Positions 8,378-20,641 of a stretch of DNA of 64,000 nt are shown here, piece after piece. The DNA is from the human T2T-CHM13v2.0 reference genome, Homo sapiens. Numbering within the stretch: the first letter of the stretch is position 1; each line of letters begins with the position of its first letter. Both the position numbers and the translations under genes were made by a program. The stretch lies in NCBI RefSeq assembly GCF_009914755.1, contig NC_060925.1; one strand, written 5' to 3'. Below the pieces are notes generated by a model, which was given only the letters and a program-made list of their open reading frames with translations, had not been told where the DNA came from and did not search any database.

Positions 8378-8655
8378 CAGTAGAGTCCTCCCTTGTCTGT
8401 GAGGAGATAACATTCCAAGACCCCCCCACAGTGGATGCCCAAAATCACAAATGGTACCAAAGCCTAGCCTAGCCTACATGGCCTTTTTGGATGGCAAATA
8501 GCATATACAGCATGTATATGCTGTATCCAACATTCCCATCAGTATTCTGCCCAAGGTGGGAAGGACAGGATGCCTCTCAGAAAAGCACACAATTTAAAAA
8601 TTAATAACTCTGAGATTGTGGTTAACCATGGTTGCAGATAAGGGGATATTACTAT
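8378..8655 (+). mobile_element. MER44/Tigger7-like non-autonomous DNA transposon
   Basis: Termini cagtagagtcctcccttgtctgtg ... tgcagataaggggatattacta; internal ttccaagacccccc..gtggatgcc. Confidence 0.65.
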
Positions 8656-9044
8656 ATTGTTATTTGACTATACTTACTTGTGAAGCGATGTGTGACTATC
8701 TCATAAACATCATCTTATAATTCGTACATACAGAAGTTGGAAATACAAAATGCTATGTCTGAAATCCAATCAAGATGTAGGTAGTAATTGCTAAATAACA
8801 TGCTAATTTTAGAAATAAAAATTACAGTGAAGGCAAATATCTAAAATGGACCATAAAAATTGATCAGTAACTGAGACTGAAAGCAGCACTGCCAAGTCAC
8901 AATAGGATCCTGAATTATACTTAATCTGGTTCTGTGTCTGTAATACAGACCATCTTTTTTTTTTTTTAATGTCACTTTGAATACGTTGAAGTCAGGTAAA
9001 TTCTAGAAAATAAACGAGTACTAAAAAAACAAAAACAAAACCAA

Positions 9045-9143
9045 AGGATAATTAGGATAATGCCTTTATTAACGAGAATGAAACGTTCATTCCTCCTTCC
9101 ACTCCTTCTCGTTGGTTTTCTGGACACAGCTCACCTGATCCTG
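9045..9143 (-). other. SFPQ: SFPQ distal terminal exon (NAGNAG acceptor; poly(A) end approximate)
   Basis: CCCTTTAATTAG CAG| acceptor (exon starts 9143 or 9140); AATAAA at 9065-9070; U/GU-rich downstream element TTTGGTTTTGTTTTTGTTTTTTT at ~9023-9045. Confidence 0.78.
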
Positions 9144-9256
9144 CTAATTAAAGGGTATGATTACTCCAAAGGATACAAGAATCAGAGTTACCAAATTCTC
9201 AAACATAACATTATATAACTGTCAAGTGAACTAATACCAAAGAAATCTTATTAATC

Positions 9257-9558
9257 GGCCTGGCGCAGTGGCTCACGCCTGCAATCCCAGCACTTTGGGA
9301 GGCCAAGGAGGGCGGATCACAGGGTCAGGAGATCAAGACCACCCTGGCTAACATGGTGAAACTCTGTCTCTACTAAAAAATACAAAAAAAAATTAGCCAG
9401 GCGTGTGTGGCGGGCGCCTGCAGTCCCAGCTACTCGGGAGGCTGAGGCAGGAGAATGGCGTGAACCCAGGAGGCGGAGCTTGCGGTGAGCCAAGACTGTG
9501 CACCACTGCTCCAGCCTGGGCGACAGAGCAAGACTCCGTCTCAAAAAAAAAAAAAAAA
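9257..9558 (+). mobile_element. AluY in the last intron of the distal SFPQ isoform
   Basis: Diagnostic gagaatggcgtgaacc / ggcggagcttgc; target-site duplication aaatctt(a/t)..taat. Confidence 0.92.
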
Positions 9559-9589
9559 ATCTTTTAATGAATGAAAGAACATGGCATTA

Positions 9590-9967
<378 letters not shown>

Positions 9968-9987
9968 CTAAGAATCATTTAACTTAC

Positions 9988-10068
9988 CTAGAAACGTTGT
10001 CAGTCTGCTTGTGGCTTCCCTCCTTGATTGACTCACGCTGTGTGATGTCTTGAGAAGTATCTATCCAC
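9988..10068 (-). other. SFPQ: SFPQ downstream alternative exon (81 nt; non-coding after VRMIDVG*)
   Basis: GTTAAC branch-like motif, TTTTTTGTTACAG| acceptor and TAG|GTAAGT donor on a unique island between Alus. Confidence 0.82.
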
Positions 10069-10089
10069 CTGTAACAAAAAATGTTAACT

Positions 10090-10304
10090 TGCTCACTGCA
10101 GCCTCAACCTCCCAGGATCAAGCGATCCCTCCCACCTCAGCCTCCAAGGGAGCTGGGACCACAGGCACACACCACCACACCTGGCTATATTTTTTTCTGT
10201 AGAGACATGGTCTCACTATTTTGCCCAGGCTGGGCTCAAGCAATCCTCCCACTTCTGCCTCCCAAAGTGCTAGGAATATAGGTGTAAAGCCACCATGCCT
10301 GACC
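10090..10304 (-). mobile_element. Truncated AluJ-like element next to the 81-nt exon acceptor
   Basis: gctcactgcagcctcaacctccc ... cctcccaaagtgctagga; tail missing. Confidence 0.85.
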
Positions 10305-10681
10305 TTCTCCTACATTTTCTTAAGTAAAAAAAGAATCATGGAGTTTTAGATGGAGTCTAAAATTGAATTGAATATTGACAATATGGCCTATTCCCCTTAA
10401 GTCAAGTTTTCTTTTCTGTTCTTCTATGACCGTTATATAACCATCCACTTTTTAAAAATTCTATTGTTTGACATTTTTATAATGCCTCTCACTTGCTTTC
10501 TCACATACATCCCTAATTTCCAAACAAAAATAAAGGGATATTATCTTAGAAACGGTAAACATCTCAAATATCGAAGTTTCACTCCACATATCTAAATGAA
10601 ATTATTTAAATCAAACTCAAAAGCCTGTAGGGGTTAAGATTTCTAAAGGAAACTTACTTCATGTGAATGAGCACTCCAATA

Positions 10682-10705
10682 TCAGCCAACATCAATCATT
10701 CTTAC
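10682..10705 (-). CDS. SFPQ: Alternative C-terminus VRMIDVG* of short SFPQ isoform (PSF-F), within 48-nt exon 10658-10705
   Basis: TTCTTTAG|GTA AGA ATG ATT GAT GTT GGC TGA ... ATGAA|GTAAGT; in phase with exon 9; matches my recollection of the isoform F C-terminus. Confidence 0.9.
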   Translation of the reverse strand, partial: VRMIDVG

Positions 10706-13700
10706 CTAAAGAATAATAAGAAAAAGTTAATATAAAAGACAAGGGTATAAAATAAAGGTTTGAAAATGCTAGTCAACTTCAAAATTTAAAGAGTAAAAAT
10801 CCAGAGATAAAGATTGGGGGTAAGTTACAGCATAAAAAAATAGGAAGAAACTTCATGGTGGGGGGGAAATCTAAAATTATTCTTACATAAAATAAGTAGA
10901 CACCTGAATTAGAATGAAAACTGTATTTTCTTTAAAATGTAAAAGCCTGACTCTCAGTTTCACCAGTCTGAGCACAAGTTTGACTGCAACCCAAAATATA
11001 CTATCCCTTATGTGAAGGTATGTGACAACGTTGACCTCACCAAATGAGTTTTAACATCAGCTCTTTTTTCATATGAAAGCACATACCCTGCTCCCCATTC
11101 AAGTATGTCTTCCATTGTCAGGCAGGCTGACCACCTTCAGCAGGAGTCCTCCAAGAGTGCCCAACTCCCCTTCCCACAGTACACAACGCTGTAGTTGTTG
11201 TCCTGCAATCCTTTGTATTTACCTCATTCTTTCCCATCTAAGTCCTCACTGAGTTTTAAAGTTAGGGCTGGAAAAGCTATGCCTTACTGGGACAGCAAGG
11301 AACCAATTTTTTTCTGAGGGAGAAGACATTCACCTTCACTATATGCCTGGCAGGGCCACAGTGCACAAAACAAAGATCAGCCTTCATTCAAGTTCCAGGT
11401 TTTTCTTCCTCCCTGAATGATTACTGCAAAGGGTATATGAAGTAAGAGTTCCCTGTTGCACATGTACCATCCATAAGGGATACTATATCGTTTTGCATTC
11501 TTCCCCCCATTCTCCACATTGTCCTATCTTAAGTCCAAGCCCTTTTCACTCTCAAAAAAAAAAAAAAAAATATTTTTTTCAGCACTGGTGTTCAAAAGCA
11601 ACGTTTTTATGGTTAATGGTTTACCAGCAACTGTTGAGATTTCCAGTTGAGTCTTAAAAATTGCCAATCATTATCTAGCAGCAATGACAGATGATTAGGA
11701 GCAGTCAAATCCTCTGAATTCTTTCCCTAATAGGCAGCCATTTGAGAACTGCACTAGCTGACATCACTAAAACATTATCAGCTAAAGCCAAAACCAAATA
11801 AAGGCCCAGACCAACATCCTGGCTCTCTAAAACCTGTCCAAAATCATTAAGTGAAAGGCAGTAAATGCAGGACTGTGGATCATGTCACTGCAGCTGACAA
11901 TGATTAACAATAGGAGACATGCAACCCCCATTAAGGTTAAAAGTCCAAAACTAGTCACACGCATCTCTTTATTGGGGAAAAGTGAGACTATTATGCATTC
12001 TTGGTAGGTTTGCAACCTTGCATGAAGAGCACCCATTGCATTTCTTTCATCTTTCAGAAAGCACCGGTATCTGTTCCAAGGGCCTAACAGTACGAAAATA
12101 CATTCTGGCATCACACCTCTGAACCCAAGACTGTTCTCATTAAAAATAATTTTGGTTTGTAACAAAATTATGAAATACAATGCAAGCACCTCGGTATAGC
12201 ATTATTACTGAAACCACTTAATTCCCAGCTTTTTGAGTTTTTTAAAAAAACCCACTGCACTAAGATTCACAATTCATTGCTACATACAAATTAAAGCTAG
12301 TAAGAACACACTAACGTCACAAGTTTCTCATTCTAAAGTGCAAAAGCCTAATCATCTGAAAGTGAACAGGGTAAGGCAAAATTAACCCCCCACCCCAATA
12401 AAGTTCCTGAAGTCCATATATTATATACCAAGTACATTCTCTAAAAATTGTTACTGACTGGTAAGAAATAGACCTGAGTTTTTATTTCTAACACCCAATC
12501 ACTAAACCACGGCAGCAAGCACTGGCCACCGATTTAATGGATTACGACACAGGAAACCCCATCAGGGTTCTATGTAATTTAGTGATACTCATGTCACTAA
12601 TATTGAGCATTATACTTGATCTGCATTATATTGTTGATATGCAGAGGCTAAACTAGTCATCATTTGCTCTTTCATCTATCAGTAGAGTCCAAAGTTGTTT
12701 GCTTGAATGGACTACATGTTAAAGTACAAGTCTGTCCCCACCTTGTGAATTGCTTGCCAACGAGCAAGCTTTTTCTTGATACACAGAAGAAAAGTCTCAT
12801 AGTCATGAAGTTTTCATCAGCATTTATGCAAAGTAAACCACTTTCCAGTTACAGAGCAGAAACATTATACATGAAAACTGTCTCTCATGCATGCTAGCTA
12901 AAACCAGTTCAGAGACCAAGAAGTTGAAGTGAGGTCTGGAACAACAGTTGATGCAAAGTCCTAAGCAACAAAAGTTGTGCTTTTGAAGACTTAGGTTTTC
13001 TTGTAAACATTTTGGACTATAACATCACATCCCTAAAGCTAAGGGAACCAAATTCAAAAAGCTACTCTGAACATATGCAGTCATCCTACAGAAACGACGA
13101 TGTCTTATGATTGGGAATGATTCCCAACATGTATTCGACTGTAGTCAAGTCAATGTTCCACACCACCTTCCCCCAGGTTTAGAGTATAGACACATTTAGA
13201 CAAGTCCCATAACTTGAACTATTCACATTAGATTCCCATCTAAGCCCAAGTTAGTAACAATGGTGTTTTCATGAAGCCCATGTTTTTAAAAATTTTAAAT
13301 CGCATTACAAAAAAACCTGTACTTTTAGTTCAACTCAACTTGTAGAATTACCAAGATTGCATAATGAAATTACTGATATTGCCGATCTATGGGCAGGTCA
13401 GTTTGCTACAATAGAGACTAATTATCACATGCTATACGGTCCATGTCAAGGTGCTAAAAGCACCCTAGTTCCCAAGTATAGTTTAGTTCCCTCTCCCCCA
13501 CACCACTGATGTGTTCCATGTTATCTTCAGTTACAATGCAACTAAAGGAAACCACACAACTGAGTCAGATATACCAAAGAATCAAGTTTGCACTTTTTAT
13601 CTGAGAACTGCAACAGCACTGAATTCTGCCTGACAAATTACAGCTCTAACCCCACACCCACACAGTTTTGATGTAAGCTAGCTTTACCATACAAGTGTTA

Positions 13701-13803
13701 GGTGCTGCACTGTAATTTCATTGTCAGAAATGTGATGCCAGAATGCCCACGGAATAAAAGTACATACAAGTCACCAAGTTAGATTATATTGCTTGTTACC
13801 TAC

Positions 13804-13906
13804 CTGTATGCAGTCGGCAATGAGAATCTTGGAGCAAGCAGGAATACTACATCCGGGTCCTAATGTCCATTGCCATTTGCGGTACTACGTTCCTCACAGT
13901 TACGCA
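13804..13906 (-). other. SFPQ: Candidate 103-nt cassette (poison) exon of SFPQ
   Basis: TTTCTGCAG| acceptor, CAG|GTAGGT donor, CpG-retaining; in frame after exon 9 reads CVTVRNVVPQMAMDIRTRM* (TAG 13847-13849); pyrimidine tract is weak. Confidence 0.45.
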
Positions 13907-15874
13907 CTGCAGAAATGCTGGCTAAATGCAGTTATGTAGCAGGCCACTACTTTAATAGTGCATAATTGCAGTCCAAGAACACCAGAAAACATTCCGCCAC
14001 AACTTAGTGGCTTGCCCAAGAAAAGCCAAGTATCTAAATTTTAATCTGCCATAATATGCCACTTAAAAATTGCACAGGCGTAACATTACAATTTCCCCAT
14101 TTTTTAGCTGTTTATATTAGTGGTACAATACATCTATAAAGAGTGGTGGGGTTTGTAGTACTTCTTATGAGTTTAATGTTCTAAGCAAAGAGGATTATGG
14201 TTTCACTAACATGAGCCAATGGGCTATGCTTATAAAATACCTATTAAATACACTGGGGTCTTAACAATATGCAGTTTTTAAAGATTAGGAGAAGTATAAA
14301 AAACAACCAGTGTTCCTCTTAAAACAAAATTATGAGAAAGTGGAGAAGAGGAAATGGGGACAAGTGGTTTCTTTAAATGAAAAAAATGGCTAAAATACTT
14401 CAAAAATTGCTACCTCCCCTTTCCCACCCCAAGTTTCAGATCGACTTTTAGGAAACTATTAAGATTATTTAAATTCACATTAGGCTAAAAACTATCATAT
14501 ATACATTGAAGACTTATTGAAAGTCTATTTGAGTAAGCTTACAACCCTGAGTACATTGCTGTTTTAGTGATGAAAGTCAAATGTCATTTGAAACTAAGCA
14601 ACATTATTTGCTAAACAACGTTTAGCAACTCTACAGTCCACAGTAAGGGTATCAAAAGCCACAACTTTCAGGAGATTATCCATTAGCATCCTTCACCACT
14701 CTTCAAAGGTACAGTACTACCAAAAGCTTATTTTAGGGGGTCTGTGCCAGCATCCCTTATAAAGAAAGGCATGTAATCTGAAAAATAAACTGAAACATTA
14801 ATTTTATAGGCAGATTTTCCCATTTCCCGACCAGCCCCCACCCACACACATTCAAAGTTCACCCTCTGTGGGTGTCCCATGGAACACCCCTTATTTTCTT
14901 GTCTTTAGTAGAGTCCCTACTATATAATTCAACCAAACTGTAATGGATTCCTTTCTAATCAAGACCCTTGTTTCCGTACAGAAAATCTCTTATGTATCAC
15001 CAATTAATAACCTGTTTGGGGACAAAACTTCCTCACTGATATAATCATGGTAAAACTACTCATATTTCCGAGTGTGCTGGTGAATGATATAATGAGCATT
15101 ACTTTCTAATGAGATTCTCTCCCTTAGCACACCATGTACCTGTCAGTCATACAACCAGTATTTGGTGAGATGCTTTTATACACTAGTGTTTACTTTCAGC
15201 ATTATCCTGTTTCCTATGCAGAAAGTGCTCAGATTGTTCCAACAATAGGTCTCCTTTTGTACACAGGCACAATACTAAACTTCAGCATGTTAATAAAGGT
15301 TTGACTTAGAATTTTTCTTTTGCCAATTAGCACCAAGAAAAGAGGTGAAAAGGAGGAAGACACATTCCATAGTAAGAATTCTACAATGTACAGATTTGAA
15401 TGGAACGTAACTCAGAACAAAGCCAAACCATTCAATTACTTTACCTACTGTTAGGAAGCTGTTCCTCTAACATATTTACACTGGGAAATCAGGCTCCCAT
15501 TATACTAACAGGCAACAATAAACAATCTACTTTAATAGTCAAAGTCTCTTGTTCTAATGGAAGGGGGTTCAATGAAGTTGACAATTAACTGACAACACCA
15601 TGGAAACATTCCAAGCCTTTATGGTGGGAGGAAGGGATATTTGTACTGTGTAGCATGAGCAACTTTCTCCAGATTTAGTGCTACATGAAAACGAAACTAT
15701 GTGAAAACAAGTTAAATTTACAATAAGAATGATTATCTGCAACCCTATTTGTTAACAATCACCACTAGCTCTTAGAAGAGAACCAATAGATTTTTATAGT
15801 CCTATAGATTTTGCCCAACAGAAGTAGCACAAGGAGATGTAAAAGTTACAGAGTACAAATGTATATATAACTAA

Positions 15875-16186
<312 letters not shown>

Positions 16187-16264
16187 AGTTACTAAACCTT
16201 CTTACTTTCAAGTTTTGTTTTTTAGACTACACCCCATCTTTATAAATCACTTGAATACATGAAA

Positions 16265-17124
16265 AGACTTCATGTTTAACATCTTTAATTCAAATGTAAA
16301 AGTTCAATACAAGCCATTTATAGGGCTTGAGATTTGTTGGTCTTTTAAAAACAAGAAATGGGGAAATGCAACAAAATGACCTTTCCACTTTTCAAAAGCT
16401 TTCAAGTAAAGGATAGATCATAGGGCCATAAAAGATCCATTTAATCAAACCCACTTTCACCCCCTACCAATTGTCTTACACCCATTCCACAATCTTAATA
16501 CATATTCCTGAAGATTTACAGTTCAGCTTTGCTTACATAACCATTTAAAAAATACTTAGCACCAGCGTGCTTCCTATATGCCAAACAAATCATCAAACTA
16601 CTTCAATATGCATTTCTTCTTTTTAAAACAAAGGGGGCAATTATTTGTAGAAAGCAATACTTAGCCTCCAGATGCATTTCCCAGAAATGGCATATGCCAT
16701 TCAAAGGCCTAGACACTCTCATGCTTTCAATGTGGAATACGTAGCCTAATATGCATAGAAGCATGAATGGCAAAGTTGAAGATCAATATTATAACTATTT
16801 TTCTATTTATTTGAAGCACAGTAAAAAAAAAAAAATTGGTACACTTTGGAAATTCAGTGGCACAAGGTACACTGCCATAAACTTGAGGGACATTATACAG
16901 TAAAAAAGAAAAAATAAAGAAATAAAAAGGAAAAAAAAATTCTCCTGTTCCAAACACTGCATTACATAATTTTACCTGCCCAAACAGACCATTTACAAAT
17001 ATTAGGTCAATAAACTGCTAACATCCATAAAAAGATAGCTTTCTTACTAAAATGCAAGAATTTAAAAGATTGGTATCTAAACAAAAAAACAAAACAAACT
17101 GGAATGAAAGCCTAAATATCACAT
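16265..17124 (-). other. SFPQ: SFPQ main 3' UTR (3' end approximate)
   Basis: U-rich, repeat-free sequence after the stop; AATAAA at 16806-16811 and ATTAAA at 16440-16445 and 16284-16289 on the minus strand. Confidence 0.75.
16284..16289 (-). terminator. Probable main poly(A) signal ATTAAA
   Basis: Last canonical hexamer before the Alu at 15895-16186; gives a ~0.85 kb UTR. Confidence 0.6.
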
Positions 17125-17262
17125 CTAAAATCGGGGTTTTTTGTTTGGGCCTTCGTACTCTTCTCTCCCTCTACCATATCCTGCTGGAGTTCCAGGCCCC
17201 ATTCCTCTAGGACCCTGTCCACCCACAGGCCCCGCACCTCCCTGCCCAAAGCGCTCAGTACG
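17125..17262 (-). CDS. SFPQ: SFPQ exon 10 coding part (138 nt incl. TAG): C-terminus with basic NLS-like PNKKPRF
   Basis: CAATAG|CGTACT; RTERFGQGGAGPVGGQGPRGMGPGTPAGYGRGREEYEGPNKKPRF*; total CDS 2124 nt = 707 aa, the known SFPQ length. Confidence 0.97.
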   Translation of the reverse strand, partial: RTERFGQGGAGPVGGQGPRGMGPGTPAGYGRGREEYEGPNKKPRF

Positions 17263-19669
17263 CTATTGGAACAGTAATTAACAGTTCATTATAAGTAGTT
17301 GATGTCCATGTGTGTTAAGTAAATATTTTAGAAGGTTCCGTAGTCAACGTTCGTCGATACAATCACCAATGAGTCGATCCACAGGTACCGGGAACATAGA
17401 AAGGAAAAAAGGGTAATTTGAAAATTAGTTTACGGTAATACATGCCTTGTGGTATGTTCCCACTTGAGCCATTCTCATACACCTGTTTCAAAGAACAGAT
17501 CTTCCCTGTAGTGCTAAAAAATTTAAGAATTAGTGCAGATGTGAAAATCCATTCCAAAATGAGTTCTAAGAAATTTCACATCAGATTAACCCACTGAAAA
17601 ACTTGCAAACTCTCACTTTCAACGTCTGAACGGAAATTTAATTTCCAAGTAAGCCTAACAAGCCCAACCAGAGATTCAATTCACTCAATGAAGTGACAAA
17701 GACCTACTCACCAGTTAGTGGCATGTGCTGCTTAAGAAACCTTGTGCTTTTCAAGATCTTAAGACACATCTGCTAAGTTGCAGAAATCTTAAAAGGTTGA
17801 AAGTTTTAATAAAATGCTACCAGACTACAAAAAGAAAAAGCATAAGACTATAGATTTAGTCACTTAACCGGCACAGTAACTTGATCAAAAAAACTTATGT
17901 TGCCAAATTCTCACAGGCACACTACCTTCCGAGCCATCACTATATAACCAGAGACAATTACGTTCTCAGTACTATTCTATATTGTTGCAAACTAAATGAA
18001 CAAACCCCACCCACCTTCATCAGTCCATCTTTTCCCTTAGGTCTTTGAAAAGTGCAGACACTTTGCTGTAATTCCATGTTTTAGACACTTCCCGAACAGT
18101 GAAACACGAAGCTAAAGTAACTGCAATAAAGCAGTGAGTGACTTCACTATTCCCATCTAGTTTTAGGTAATTCTGGAGATAGAAGTTTTCAATAGAAACA
18201 TATGTGCCTAAATAGCAGACCCCTCAGGTATGCAAACACAGCAGCCTACACTTTTTCTCATTCCATTTATAATAGACCAGTTACTAAGAGTATTACTCCA
18301 AATAAAAAACTAAAAGGGCATCAGGGTTTAACTGTTCCTATACACAATTTCAACATTCTTTTAAACAAAATACTATTGAGCTACTCAACATGACTAAACT
18401 TTTATCCTTTGTTTTTCAAAATCTTATAAATTACAGGGTTTTTGGCTCATTGTTCTGTGTTCTACCTCTAAGAACTTAAAAAAAAGAAAAAGTTGGGGCT
18501 TTCATAATTATGTTAATTACACCAGCTGAGAACCCAGGAGCTATCAGCTACCTGTTATCTAGAATATAAACCTTTAATTGTGAGAACATAAGGTCAAATT
18601 AGATTTTACACATTACCTAACAATCTGTCTTTAGGAAGAATATAAACCAAAATGTTACCCACATACTCTGAAAAATCTAAAGAAAGCCCATAGTATTACA
18701 TTTTACCCAACCAGCCATTTATAATTCTAACTTTAATTCCCAAAAAGTCTTAGGTAGATTATAAACAGGTGAGGCCTTATACAAAATCCTTATGTTTCTA
18801 TTTATAAAATGAATCTTATGAGCTACTCACTGCAGCTCCCCTCCTTTGCCAAAAGCCTGTAGTGAACTCATCACATTCAACTCAGCTATAAAAATGCACT
18901 CTCTAAACCCACCAAAATTCAGTCCTAACGATTTGTAAAGCCCTAATGCAGCCACTCATACCAGTTCAACTGATTGTTCTAAGCATCTGACAGGCTATAT
19001 TCACAGCTGAAACATGATAGCATCAAGAAGGTTCAGATCAAATGCACACCATTAGTATGCTTAAAAATTGTTGATTTTTGCTACTCTGTAGCAAAATGGA
19101 GATGTCAGTTGATTTTAGAAGGTATACCTACAGACAGGCCCAACAGGTGGGAAACGACGAGTCAAAACACTCAATTCCCTTTTCATAGGATAGAAGCCAC
19201 ACCAAATATAGGTCAAAGTCCTACACATCACTAAAACGTGCCTAAAGCTTCAAACTACAAGTCTGATTCCTACTTATGGCAAATACCAGCTTAAAGAATG
19301 AGTTTGCCATTTGATTATTCTCACTTGGATGTAGAATAATCAGATACATTATCTAGCATCTAGAATTTGGATTTGCCATGCACTAGAGTTCAAAAGCACC
19401 TAAATCTACTTATTGCCAAAGGTAATTCCACATAATACTAACAGCATTGACTCCTTGTTGGCAACCGTTATCTGTTTAGGTTACCACACACCGAGTTCTT
19501 CTATGTTGCCAAAGTATTCCTCAATATTACATATTTATGTATGAAATTGGTAGGGGAAACTAAAAGAGGTCCAGTCACCTACTTAAAAAAACAAAACAAA
19601 ACAAAACAAACACACCTAAGTTGTGAAAATGAGAATTTCCTTGGTACTACGTCCCACAGGATACATTAC

Positions 19670-19791
19670 CATGTCACTTCCCATCATGGAACCACTCATG
19701 GTTGCTGGTGGAACGCCAGGATTAGCTTCATAACCTATGCCACCACCACCTCCTAGAGGTGGAAATTTCTGGCCTCCTGAACCATAGGGAT
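19670..19791 (-). CDS. SFPQ: SFPQ exon 9 (122 nt): Gly-rich C-terminal low-complexity region
   Basis: TTCTAG|ATCCCT ... GACATG|GTAATG; PYGSGGQKFPPLGGGGGIGYEANPGVPPATMSGSMMGSDM; ends in phase 0 (cumulative 1986 nt). Confidence 0.96.
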
Positions 19792-19871
19792 CTAGAAAAC
19801 AAAAATAGTGGTTACAACTCCACCAGGATACTACTCTCTACTTATATCATTAATTTAAATTTCACACTTAC

Positions 19872-19920
19872 CTCCCATGTTCATTGCTCCTCCGCCACCC
19901 ATTCGCATGTCTCTTTCCCG
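19872..19920 (-). CDS. SFPQ: SFPQ exon 8 (49 nt)
   Basis: TTGCAG|CGGGAA ... TGGGAG|GTAAGT; RERDMRMGGGGAMNMG. Confidence 0.95.
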
Positions 19921-20641
19921 CTGCAAGAAAAAAATTCCTTTCAATATACCTGCACTATACCCACAGCAAGCATTCTTAAGAACTGAGAAATTTTCAAGAG
20001 TTAAATAAAAAACATGGTAAAGTTCAAAAGTTCATCATGTGAATTATTTTTGAAATCAATATTCTGAAAACTAAGTTAGACTCAATTATCCAAAGACCTA
20101 CAAAACTTCCTATTCAAGGCCGGGAGCAGTGGCTCACGCCTGTAATCACAGCACTTTGGAAGGCCGAGGCAGGCAGATCACCTGAGGTCAGGAGTTCAAG
20201 ACCAGCCTGGCCAACAAGGCGAAACGCCATTTCTACTAAAAATACAAAAATTAGCCGAGCCTGATGGCAGGCACTTGTAATCCCACCTACTCAAGAGGCT
20301 GAGGCAGGAGAATCACTTGAACCCAGAAGGCAGATGCTGCAGTGAGCCAAGATCAAGCCACTGCACTCCAGCCTGGGTGACAAGAGCAAAACTCTCTCCA
20401 AAAAAAAAACCAAACAAACAAAAAAACAAAACAAAACAAAAAAACCAAGAAACAAAACACAAAAAAACTTCCTATTCAATTAAATCCTCTGACCCATACA
20501 AGGAAATCAAACATAATATACTTTGTTAGAAAAAAAGCAGAAAATAACTGTAATTTGATATTAAAATTTCCTGTAATTCCTTCTAGGTACCTGCAAGTTC
20601 TATAGACAACTCCAATTGGAAGGCAGTAAAGGCTGACTTAC

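What the first reader, a model, noticed from the sequence alone, without database searches (positions are those of the whole stretch)
10658..10712. The PSF-F exon starts with a ready-made 5' splice site (AG|GTAAGA): a recursive-splicing-type exon
Seen: the acceptor TTCTTTAG is followed immediately by GTAAGA. Splicing exon 9 (ending ...CATG) to it rebuilds ATG|GTAAGA, closer to consensus than exon 9's own donor ATG|GTAATG; it would compete with AA|GTAAGT 48 nt later. Established: this is the layout of RS-exons, whose re-splicing is repressed by the exon junction complex. Inference: re-splicing would delete VRMIDVG* and join exon 9 to the 81-nt exon, giving ...VDRYFSRHHTA* with the stop only 45 nt from the last junction, under the 50-55 nt NMD rule. 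A two-step, EJC-sensitive splice could therefore turn an NMD substrate into a stable SFPQ lacking the exon-10 NLS-like tail. I do not recall this being described for SFPQ.
Basis: partly seen in the sequence, partly recalled or inferred. Interest (0 to 1): 0.8.

Follow-up and report, generated by a model that had tools for sequence, protein, structure and literature searches.

The report
SFPQ alternative exon resembling recursive-splice exon
A known 48-base alternative exon of the human SFPQ gene does begin with a ready-made splice-donor sequence, a layout shared by a few percent of human exons, but nothing available here shows that it is spliced out again in a second step.

Summary
On the minus strand, exon 10705-10658 follows TTCTTTAG and starts GTAAGA. 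Joined to exon 9 it rebuilds ATG|GTAAGA, and its own donor GAA|GTAAGT lies 48 nt on. The reading frames and the 45-nt stop-to-junction distance are as stated.

The exon is already known. It is the first alternative distal exon of altSFPQ/PSF-F, an NMD-targeted, autoregulatory isoform that gives a 669-aa cytoplasmic SFPQ without the NLS (PMC12372870, PMC6547761).

It fits the sequence definition of a putative "RS-exon" (PMC6224609). That class holds about 3.4% of human exon junctions, and about 27% of those expressed in HeLa respond to EJC loss. Actual re-splicing could not be tested, because no RNA-seq, lariat data or vertebrate genomes were available.

Indirect evidence leans against major use:
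- The exon's own donor is strong (published MaxEntScan 9.82).
- The downstream intron is short (589 nt) and the upstream one long (8,964 nt).
- The published splice-variant analysis from exon 9 lists no 9-to-81-nt-exon junction, although an NMD-immune product should accumulate.

I found no paper describing recursive splicing of SFPQ's own transcript. Verdict: a real, ordinary member of a known class in an interesting gene, and a cheap hypothesis to test.

The parts
19670..19791 (-). SFPQ exon 9 (122 nt). It ends ...GACATG in phase 0. Its last three bases, ATG, supply positions -3 to -1 of the rebuilt donor. Its own donor is ATG|GTAATG, with the intron starting at 19669.
   Evidence: and the hub annotation. 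By this donor matches 5 of 9 consensus positions, with a U1-duplex proxy of -6.4 kcal/mol.
10706..10730 (-). Acceptor of the 48-nt exon: TTAACTTTTTCTTATTATTCTTTAG. Positions -20 to -3 are 89% pyrimidine. The branch-point candidate is TTAAC, with its A at -22 (window 10727).
10658..10705 (-). The 48-nt alternative exon, known as the PSF-F exon or 'exon 11' / first alternative distal exon of altSFPQ. It encodes VRMIDVG followed by a stop (TGA at 10684-10682).
   Evidence: and the hub annotation. 662 + 7 = 669 aa matches the altSFPQ protein described in PMC12372870.
10700..10705 (-). GTAAGA at the very start of the exon. After ligation to exon 9 it forms the candidate recursive 5' splice site ATG|GTAAGA. 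In unspliced RNA the same bases read TAG|GTAAGA.
   Evidence: The rebuilt site matches 6 of 9 consensus positions, with a U1 proxy of -8.0, stronger than 8 of the 11 annotated SFPQ donors scored. The genomic context scores -9.4. No MaxEntScan score was computed.
10652..10657 (-). GTAAGT, the exon's own donor (GAA|GTAAGT), 48 nt downstream of the candidate recursive site.
   Evidence: 7 of 9 matches, U1 proxy -5.6. The published MaxEntScan score for this exact 9-mer is 9.82 (PMC8156830 Table 3). RefSeq exon 10658-17262 uses the same donor (hub annotation).
9988..10068 (-). The 81-nt exon that a re-splice would join to exon 9. The resulting frame reads VDRYFSRHHTA followed by a stop (TGA at 10035-10033), 45 nt before the exon's end. 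The acceptor is ...AAGTTAACATTTTTTGTTACAG, with its only nearby branch-point candidate A at -16 (10084). An Alu ends 22 nt upstream of the acceptor. The exon's donor is TAG|GTAAGT.
9049..9143 (-). Last exon of the alternative transcripts (acceptor at 9143 or 9140), carrying AATAAA near its end.
   Evidence: and the hub annotation.

Best explanation
The 48-nt exon is the known first alternative distal exon of the altSFPQ (PSF-F) isoform. When SFPQ pre-mRNA bypasses exon 10 and its poly(A) sites, exon 9 is spliced to this exon, then to the 81-nt exon and a last exon. This gives an mRNA whose stop codon is followed by two junctions. That mRNA is degraded by NMD as part of SFPQ autoregulation, and some is translated into a 669-aa cytoplasmic SFPQ without the NLS (shown in the literature). 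By sequence, the exon also belongs to the common class of putative RS-exons, because ligation to exon 9 rebuilds a good donor (shown here). I infer that this rebuilt donor is mostly silent. It would be repressed by the EJC laid down on exon 9 and matched by the exon's own strong donor and the short downstream intron. The exon therefore stays in once its acceptor is chosen, and re-splicing is at most a minor side reaction.
For: - Sequence, frames and distances.
- Identity with altSFPQ: 669 aa with seven unique residues; exon 9-to-11 splicing; a PTC followed by two introns; 20-fold rise with cycloheximide; RNA puncta rising from 2.23 to 26.24 per cell with an SMG1 inhibitor; autoregulation by SFPQ level (PMC12372870 sections 6-9).
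- Independent AS-NMD model for the distal 3'-UTR exons: PMC6547761.
- Class definition and base rates (PMC6224609). The threshold is MaxEnt 5.52. 1.7-4.9% of exons qualify, depending on threshold. There were 4,631 RS against 130,410 non-RS junctions. Only 26.8% of 1,105 expressed putative RS-exons skipped more after eIF4A3 knockdown. Sensitive exons tend to have weaker donors and lose the upstream intron first.
- This exon's own donor 9-mer scores 9.82 by MaxEntScan in a published table.
- Introns are 8,964 nt upstream and 589 nt downstream.
- The MAJIQ variant from exon 9 lists 9>10, 9>11 and intron retention only.
- My arithmetic: NMD removes about 11.8-fold of altSFPQ. Even 10% re-splicing into an NMD-immune mRNA would therefore give a product about 1.3 times as abundant as altSFPQ, which should have been noticed.
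- No RefSeq exon ends at 10706, while one ends at 10658 (hub table).
Against: - By consensus match and U1 pairing, the rebuilt donor is a good site. It scores -8.0 kcal/mol, against -5.6 for the exon's own donor and -6.4 for exon 9's donor, and is stronger than 8 of the 11 annotated SFPQ donors.
- The acceptor is strong (89% pyrimidine), a feature of EJC-sensitive RS-exons.
- PMC6224609 reports that sensitivity is not predicted by the RS-5ss score, and that some RS-exons are re-spliced even with the EJC present.
- The published MAJIQ description names 'well-expressed events', so a minor junction may have gone unreported.
- Transcript connectivity is not given in the hub table.
- I could not see supplementary figures or any read data.
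Confidence: 0.6

Rival explanations
1. The exon is a working RS-exon. After exon 9 is joined to it, the rebuilt ATG|GTAAGA is used with the acceptor at 10069, removing the 48 nt together with the 589-nt intron. The product ends ...VDRYFSRHHTA* (673 aa) with its stop 45 nt from the last junction, so it escapes EJC-dependent NMD. EJC occupancy on exon 9 sets the balance.
For: - The layout meets the RS-exon definition, with a good rebuilt donor and a strong acceptor (PMC6224609).
- The frames and the 45-nt distance are confirmed.
- 26.8% of expressed putative RS-exons respond to eIF4A3 knockdown, and some are re-spliced physiologically.
- altSFPQ is a strong NMD target yet is found on heavy polysomes. 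An NMD-immune sibling would therefore be biologically meaningful.
Against: - No read, lariat or reporter data exist for this exon.
- SFPQ is absent from the main text of PMC6224609. In the three supplementary files held, it appears only as an ENCODE knockdown entry.
- SFPQ is absent from the three supplementary files held for the lariat-based RS study PMC10156609.
- The exon's own donor is strong (MaxEnt 9.82), and the downstream intron is short while the upstream one is long.
- No 9>81-nt-exon junction appears among the events reported from exon 9, although a stable product should accumulate.
- The polysome and qPCR assays in PMC12372870 target exon 9-to-11 splicing, so the translated pool they see contains the exon.
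- Logical weakness: EJC loss also disables EJC-dependent NMD, so the switch adds little under the very condition that would trigger it.
Confidence: 0.2
2. Any exon 9 to 81-nt-exon mRNA arises by ordinary one-step exon skipping. Exon 9's donor pairs directly with the acceptor at 10069 across 9,601 nt, and the GTAAGA at the exon start plays no part.
For: - The 48-nt exon is short and alternative.
- The end product of one-step skipping is identical to that of recursive splicing, so junction reads alone cannot tell them apart (general point, made in PMC6224609 through its use of lariats and iCLIP).
Against: - The acceptor of the 81-nt exon looks weaker than that of the 48-nt exon: 67% against 89% pyrimidine, a single nearby branch-point candidate at -16, and an Alu ending 22 nt upstream.
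- The existence of the junction is itself unshown.
Confidence: 0.1
3. The GTAAGA is kept for a reason other than use as a recursive donor. Candidates are coding (Val-Arg of the VRMIDVG tail), membership of a broadly or ultra-conserved block around the exon, or a U1-binding site overlapping the acceptor that tunes recognition of the exon in unspliced RNA.
For: - PMC12372870 states that the first alternative exon is well conserved, whereas the two downstream exons arose in mammals. That would put the exon start before any acceptor for a re-splice existed.
- A preprint places a UCbase ultraconserved element near the SFPQ non-productive junction (10.1101/2025.06.15.659434). The coordinates are in a figure I could not see.
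- In genomic context TAG|GTAAGA has the best U1 proxy of the local sites (-9.4).
Against: - I could not align any other vertebrate, so I do not know whether GTAAG itself is conserved.
- No canonical poly(A) hexamer lies in the 589 nt after the exon in human, so a terminal-exon past is not visible here.
- The U1-tuning idea is pure inference.
Confidence: 0.1

Closest known systems
Annotated RS-exons whose recursive 5' splice site is repressed by the exon junction complex (Blazquez et al. 2018, PMC6224609; for example KPNA1)
   Same: The exon starts with GT... so that ligation to the preceding exon rebuilds a 5' splice site. It has its own downstream donor for exon definition. The predicted outcome of re-splicing is skipping of the whole exon.
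   Different: - The published set is mainly constitutive internal coding exons. This one is a minor alternative exon beyond the main poly(A) site and carries the stop codon.
[quoted passage not shown]
- No skipping, iCLIP or lariat evidence exists for it.
Cryptic RS-exons of long vertebrate genes (Sibley et al. 2015, as summarised in PMC6224609 and PMC7997972; the paper itself was not read)
   Same: A Py-tract AG|GTAAG site is followed within 100 nt by a second donor. The small exon carries a premature stop, so its inclusion leads to NMD.
   Different: - Those sites lie deep in very long introns of neuronal genes and are normally removed. Here the spanned intron is 9.6 kb and the exon is retained in the annotated isoform.
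- No saw-tooth read pattern could be examined.
altSFPQ / PSF-F AS-NMD autoregulatory isoform (Neeves et al. 2025, PMC12372870; Pervouchine et al. 2019, PMC6547761)
   Same: It is the same exon, the same 669-aa product with seven unique residues, and the same stop followed by two junctions.
   Different: In the passages and sections I read, neither paper mentions the donor-like start of the exon, recursive splicing, or an isoform that skips the exon. PMC12372870 has 0 occurrences of 'recursive'.
Drosophila intronic ratchet points (as described in PMC8605326 abstract and PMC6224609 section 15)
   Same: An acceptor and a donor are juxtaposed (YYYYNYAG|GTAAG), with a second donor less than 100 nt downstream.
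   Different: Ratchet points subdivide very long introns and leave no exon in the mRNA. In Drosophila, PMC6224609 found no EJC dependence for annotated RS-exons.

Membership tests
Putative RS-exon (definition of PMC6224609) | The last 3 nt of the preceding exon plus the first 6 nt of the exon form a 5' splice site with MaxEntScan above 5.52 | tested here: inconclusive
   The rebuilt site is ATG|GTAAGA. It has G at -1 and GTAAG at +1 to +5, matching 6 of 9 positions of CAG|GTAAGT. Its U1-duplex proxy is -8.0 kcal/mol, stronger than 8 of the 11 annotated SFPQ donors. MaxEntScan is not installed, and no published score for this 9-mer was found. From recall, sites of this form score well above 5.52, but the number itself was not obtained.
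Putative RS-exon (definition of PMC6224609) | Own downstream 5' splice site that defines the exon in the first step | tested here: met
   GAA|GTAAGT lies at 10660-10652. The published MaxEntScan score for the identical 9-mer is 9.82. The donor is annotated in RefSeq exons 10658-10705 and 10658-17262 (hub table).
EJC-sensitive (functional) RS-exon | Upstream intron removed before the downstream intron | not testable with these tools
   Needs paired-end nascent or total RNA-seq. The intron lengths (8,964 nt upstream, 589 nt downstream), the weak exon-9 donor and the strong exon donor suggest the opposite order, but this is inference.
EJC-sensitive (functional) RS-exon | The exon-skipped junction exists, rises on depletion of EIF4A3, RBM8A, MAGOH, RNPS1 or PNN but not UPF1, and depends on the GT at the exon start | not testable with these tools
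   No RNA-seq access. The published MAJIQ variant from exon 9 lists only 9>10, 9>11 and intron retention.
EJC-sensitive (functional) RS-exon | Spliceosome (PRPF8 iCLIP) on the exon-exon junction, or a lariat whose 5' end is the first base of the exon | not testable with these tools
   SFPQ was not found in the three supplementary files held for the lariat study PMC10156609. In the files held for PMC6224609 it appears only as an ENCODE knockdown entry. The held files may be incomplete.
altSFPQ / PSF-F first alternative distal exon | Spliced from exon 9; adds seven residues to give 669 aa; the stop is followed by two introns | tested here: met
   One search gives 662 codons plus VRMIDVG followed by a stop, with the stop at nt 24 of the exon. 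The 81-nt and last exons lie downstream (hub table). This matches the description in PMC12372870.
altSFPQ / PSF-F first alternative distal exon | NMD sensitivity and autoregulatory use | not tested
   Taken from PMC12372870 and PMC6547761. It is experimental and was not reproduced here.
Intronic recursive site of long genes (saw-tooth type) | Lies deep in a very long intron and leaves no exon in the mature mRNA | tested here: not met
   The span from exon 9 to the 81-nt exon is 9,601 nt, and the 48-nt exon is kept in annotated transcripts (hub table).

The most novel reading that the evidence does not exclude
The 48-nt exon is a true two-step switch inside SFPQ's autoregulatory loop. Junction-specific EJC or RNPS1/PNN occupancy on exon 9 decides between two outcomes. 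Either the distal isoform keeps the exon, giving NMD-degraded altSFPQ, or it re-splices it out. Re-splicing would yield an NMD-immune mRNA for a 673-aa, NLS-less, cytoplasmic SFPQ. That would give neurons a way to make stable cytoplasmic SFPQ and could contribute to SFPQ mislocalisation in ALS.
Probability: 0.1. Interest if true: 0.6.

Novelty: new member of a known kind. Interest (0 to 1): 0.38.

Why it matters
SFPQ dosage and nuclear-cytoplasmic distribution are tied to ALS and FTD. The distal-exon isoform was recently shown to be both the NMD arm of SFPQ autoregulation and the source of a cytoplasmic protein (PMC12372870). If the exon were re-spliced, the same splice choice could give either a degraded or a stable mRNA for NLS-less SFPQ. 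That would change how altSFPQ measurements are read, because junction-specific qPCR would miss the skipped form. It would also give a concrete case of recursive splicing used to evade NMD. If the exon is not re-spliced, it is one more silent RS-type junction among thousands. Either answer can be had cheaply from existing knockdown RNA-seq.

Tried and rejected
- MaxEntScan scoring: no such module on the script machine. Full-text searches for the three 9-mers gave a published score only for GAAgtaagt (9.82) and none for ATGGTAAGA or ATGGTAATG.
- Local RNA structure of the part-spliced intermediate: mean unpaired probability is 0.40 at the rebuilt donor and 0.42 at the exon's own donor, so it does not discriminate.
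- Inverted repeats around the exon: only short AT-rich arms, which I judged to be chance. One search was a strand slip, corrected.
- Rfam scan of 8500-20500: no family found.
- Retrocopies as fossils of spliced isoforms. The only other genomic copy of exon 9 (contig C24) is a processed copy of the canonical mRNA, with exon 9 followed by exon 10. The 81-nt exon and the 48-nt exon with its flanks are single-copy. This is uninformative.
- Supplement look-ups for SFPQ gave nothing relevant. PMC6224609 has it only as an ENCODE knockdown entry, and PMC10156609 has none.
- The earlier-findings tool was not open.
- Vertebrate conservation could not be tested, because no vertebrate genome other than this one is reachable. 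I ran no further search on it: isoforms differing only in the last 45 residues would be merged at 90% clustering.
- Literature searches for prior description:
  - SFPQ + 'recursive splicing': 12 papers, 10 listed. I read passages of 4.
  - SFPQ + PSF-F: 3 papers, listing only.
  - SFPQ + EIF4A3 and related terms.
  - SFPQ / RNPS1 / EJC / re-splicing: 46 papers, 20 listed.
  - SFPQ / NMD / autoregulation.
  - SFPQ / poison exon / ultraconserved.
  - None describes recursive splicing of SFPQ's own transcript.
Full report
**1. What is in the sequence**

SFPQ lies on the minus strand. Reading that strand:
- The annotated 48-nt exon runs from 10705 to 10658.
- It is preceded by ...TTAACTTTTTCTTATTATTCTTTAG and begins GTAAGAATG.
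- It ends ...CACATGAA and is followed by GTAAGT.
- Exon 9 ends ...GTGACATG at 19670 and is followed by GTAATG.

A script that read the annotated coding parts from the window gave these results:
- There are 1986 coding nt (662 codons) through exon 9, so exon 9 ends in phase 0.
- Exon 9 plus the 48-nt exon reads ...GSDM VRMIDVG stop, with the stop ending at nt 24 of the exon (TGA 10684-10682).
- Exon 9 plus the 81-nt exon (10068-9988) reads ...GSDM VDRYFSRHHTA stop, with the stop ending at nt 36 of 81. That is 45 nt before the last junction.
- The canonical tail from exon 10 ends ...EEYEGPNKKPRF.

**2. Is it more than chance?**

- The composite acceptor-donor motif YYYYNYAG|GTAAG occurs once in the window, at this site. 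The expectation is 0.41, and 34 of 100 shuffles had at least one match.
- AGGTAAG alone occurs 6 times against 9.6 expected. Three of the six are SFPQ splice sites: this acceptor, and the donors of exon 8 and of the 81-nt exon.
- None of the 9 canonical SFPQ junctions rebuilds a GT. Of the six alternative junction combinations I scored, three do: exon 9 > 48-nt exon (GTAAGA), and the weak GTGGAT at exon 9 > 81 and 48-nt > 81.
- The base rate matters most. In PMC6224609, an exon counts as a putative RS-exon if the junction with the preceding exon scores above 5.52 by MaxEntScan (section 30).
- Depending on threshold, 1.7-4.9% of human exons qualify. One figure legend counts 4,631 RS against 130,410 non-RS junctions, about 3.4%.
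- For a gene with about 12 junctions, that gives roughly a one-in-three chance of carrying one (my arithmetic).

The layout is real but not rare.

**3. Strength of the three donors**

MaxEntScan is not available on the script machine. As proxies I used matches to CAG|GTAAGT and the ViennaRNA duplex energy with the 5' end of U1. The U1 motif is recalled, and the duplex register is not constrained. Results:

| Site | Sequence | Matches of 9 | U1 proxy (kcal/mol) |
|---|---|---|---|
| Exon 9's own donor | ATG\|GTAATG | 5 | -6.4 |
| Rebuilt site | ATG\|GTAAGA | 6 | -8.0 |
| Exon's own donor | GAA\|GTAAGT | 7 | -5.6 |
| Genomic context of the same GT | TAG\|GTAAGA | 7 | -9.4 |

- The rebuilt site is stronger by this proxy than 8 of the 11 annotated SFPQ donors scored.
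- A published table gives MaxEntScan 9.82 for the identical 9-mer GAAgtaagt (PMC8156830 Table 3). The exon's own donor is therefore strong by the standard measure.
- No published score for ATGGTAAGA was found.
- Predicted accessibility in the part-spliced RNA is the same for both sites, 0.40 and 0.42.

**4. What the exon is**

The literature identifies it.
- PMC12372870 (Sci Adv 2025; sections 6-8, part of the discussion and passages read) describes altSFPQ.
  - It arises by exon 9 to "exon 11" splicing followed by two further exons (ENST00000470472 / NR_136703.2).
  - It is a premature-stop transcript that rises 20-fold with cycloheximide. Its RNA puncta rise from 2.23 to 26.24 per cell with an SMG1 inhibitor.
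  - It goes up when SFPQ is over-expressed.
  - It is translated into a 669-aa protein with seven unique C-terminal residues that lacks the classical NLS and is mainly cytoplasmic.
  - This matches 662 + 7 residues.
- The authors credit Patton et al. 1993 with a transcript consistent with it (cited; that paper was not read).
- PMC6547761 (passages) had proposed the same AS-NMD autoregulation through the distal 3'-UTR exons.

The NMD-substrate and NLS-less parts of the finding are therefore already in print. Neither paper mentions the donor-like start of the exon. PMC12372870 has 0 occurrences of "recursive".

**5. Does it work as a recursive exon?**

This cannot be tested here, because there are no read data, lariats or reporters. 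What bears on it is indirect.

For:
- A good rebuilt donor.
- A strong acceptor, with 89% pyrimidine and a TTAAC branch-point candidate at -22.
- 26.8% of 1,105 expressed putative RS-exons skipped more after eIF4A3 knockdown.
- Some RS-exons are re-spliced even with the EJC present, as shown by PRPF8 iCLIP and 287 candidate RS-lariats.

Against:
[quoted passage not shown] Here the exon's donor scores 9.82. The upstream intron is 8,964 nt and starts from a weak donor, while the downstream intron is only 589 nt.
- (b) The acceptor that the re-splice needs looks weaker: 67% pyrimidine, one nearby branch-point candidate at -16, and an Alu ending 22 nt upstream.
- (c) The MAJIQ variant that starts at exon 9 is described as holding 9>10, 9>11 and intron retention. 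NMD removes about 11.8-fold of altSFPQ. Even 10% re-splicing into an NMD-immune mRNA should therefore give a product about 1.3 times as abundant as altSFPQ (my arithmetic). Such a product would hardly go unreported, though the text speaks only of "well-expressed events".
- (d) RefSeq has an exon 10658-17262 that uses the downstream donor although the GT at 10705 lies within it. No annotated exon ends at 10706 (hub table).
- (e) SFPQ is not in the main text of PMC6224609. In its three held supplementary files it appears only as an ENCODE knockdown entry. It is also absent from the three files held for the lariat study PMC10156609. These files may be incomplete.
- (f) There is a logical point. 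EJC depletion also removes the mark that triggers NMD of altSFPQ. The switch would therefore matter only if controlled at this junction alone or by peripheral factors.

**6. Conservation**

- I could not align other vertebrates.
- PMC12372870 states that the first alternative exon is well conserved while the two downstream exons arose in mammals.
- A preprint places a UCbase ultraconserved element near the SFPQ non-productive junction, but the coordinates are in a figure I could not see.
- If the exon start predates the downstream acceptor, its conservation cannot be for re-splicing. This is a lead, not a test.

**7. Other checks**

- No Rfam family lies in 8500-20500.
- Inverted repeats around the exon are only short AT-rich arms.
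- Exon 9 has one other copy in the genome, a processed copy of the canonical mRNA on contig C24.
- The 81-nt exon and the 48-nt exon with its flanks are single-copy.

**8. Verdict**

- The exon is the known altSFPQ/PSF-F exon and, by sequence, a putative RS-exon. I rate it a new member of a known and populous class.
- The most likely behaviour is inclusion with a silent or minor recursive site (0.6).
- Real EJC-sensitive re-splicing has about the class base rate (0.2).
- I found no paper that describes it for SFPQ.
- The hypothesis is cheap to test on existing knockdown RNA-seq, and the gene is disease-relevant. That keeps interest moderate rather than low.
- Supplementary tables that I could not see might already list this exon. 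These are the RS-exon and lariat tables of PMC6224609, the RNPS1 tables of PMC9178013, and the figures of PMC12372870.

Noticed in passing
L002 (G000 contig C24, about 14,003,600-14,005,400): A processed (intron-less) copy of the canonical SFPQ mRNA. Exons 6, 7, 8, 9 and 10 lie contiguous at 76-88% identity. Exon 9 is followed by exon 10 sequence, not by the alternative distal exons.
   Followed up: partly
window 10091-10305 (- strand): An old Alu, in sense orientation relative to SFPQ, ends 22 nt before the acceptor of the 81-nt exon. Only AAGTTAACATTTTTTGTTACAG is left for the branch point and pyrimidine tract, which suggests the acceptor context was reshaped in primates.
   Followed up: no
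window 19616-19669 (- strand): The annotated extension of exon 9 reads VMYPVGRSTKEILIFTT followed by a stop. Its stop codon TAG forms positions -3 to -1 of the alternative donor TAG|GTGTGT. Joined to the 48-nt exon, it would rebuild TAG|GTAAGA.
   Followed up: no
window 10063-10068 (- strand): The 81-nt exon also starts with GT (GTGGAT). Its junctions with exon 9 or with the 48-nt exon therefore rebuild a weak donor-like site (4 of 9 matches; U1 proxy -4.6 and -2.8).
   Followed up: partly
window 10069-10657 (- strand): There is no AATAAA or ATTAAA in the 589-nt intron after the 48-nt exon. In human, the exon therefore has no obvious way to act as a terminal exon. The last exon (9049-9143) carries AATAAA.
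   Followed up: partly
window 23167, 21855 and 21672 (donors of SFPQ exons 4, 5 and 6): Several constitutive SFPQ donors are weak by consensus: AAA|GTAAGA, AAG|GTAAAA and GAG|GTAAAA, each 6 of 9 matches. The candidate recursive site is better than most of the gene's regular donors by the U1 proxy.
   Followed up: no
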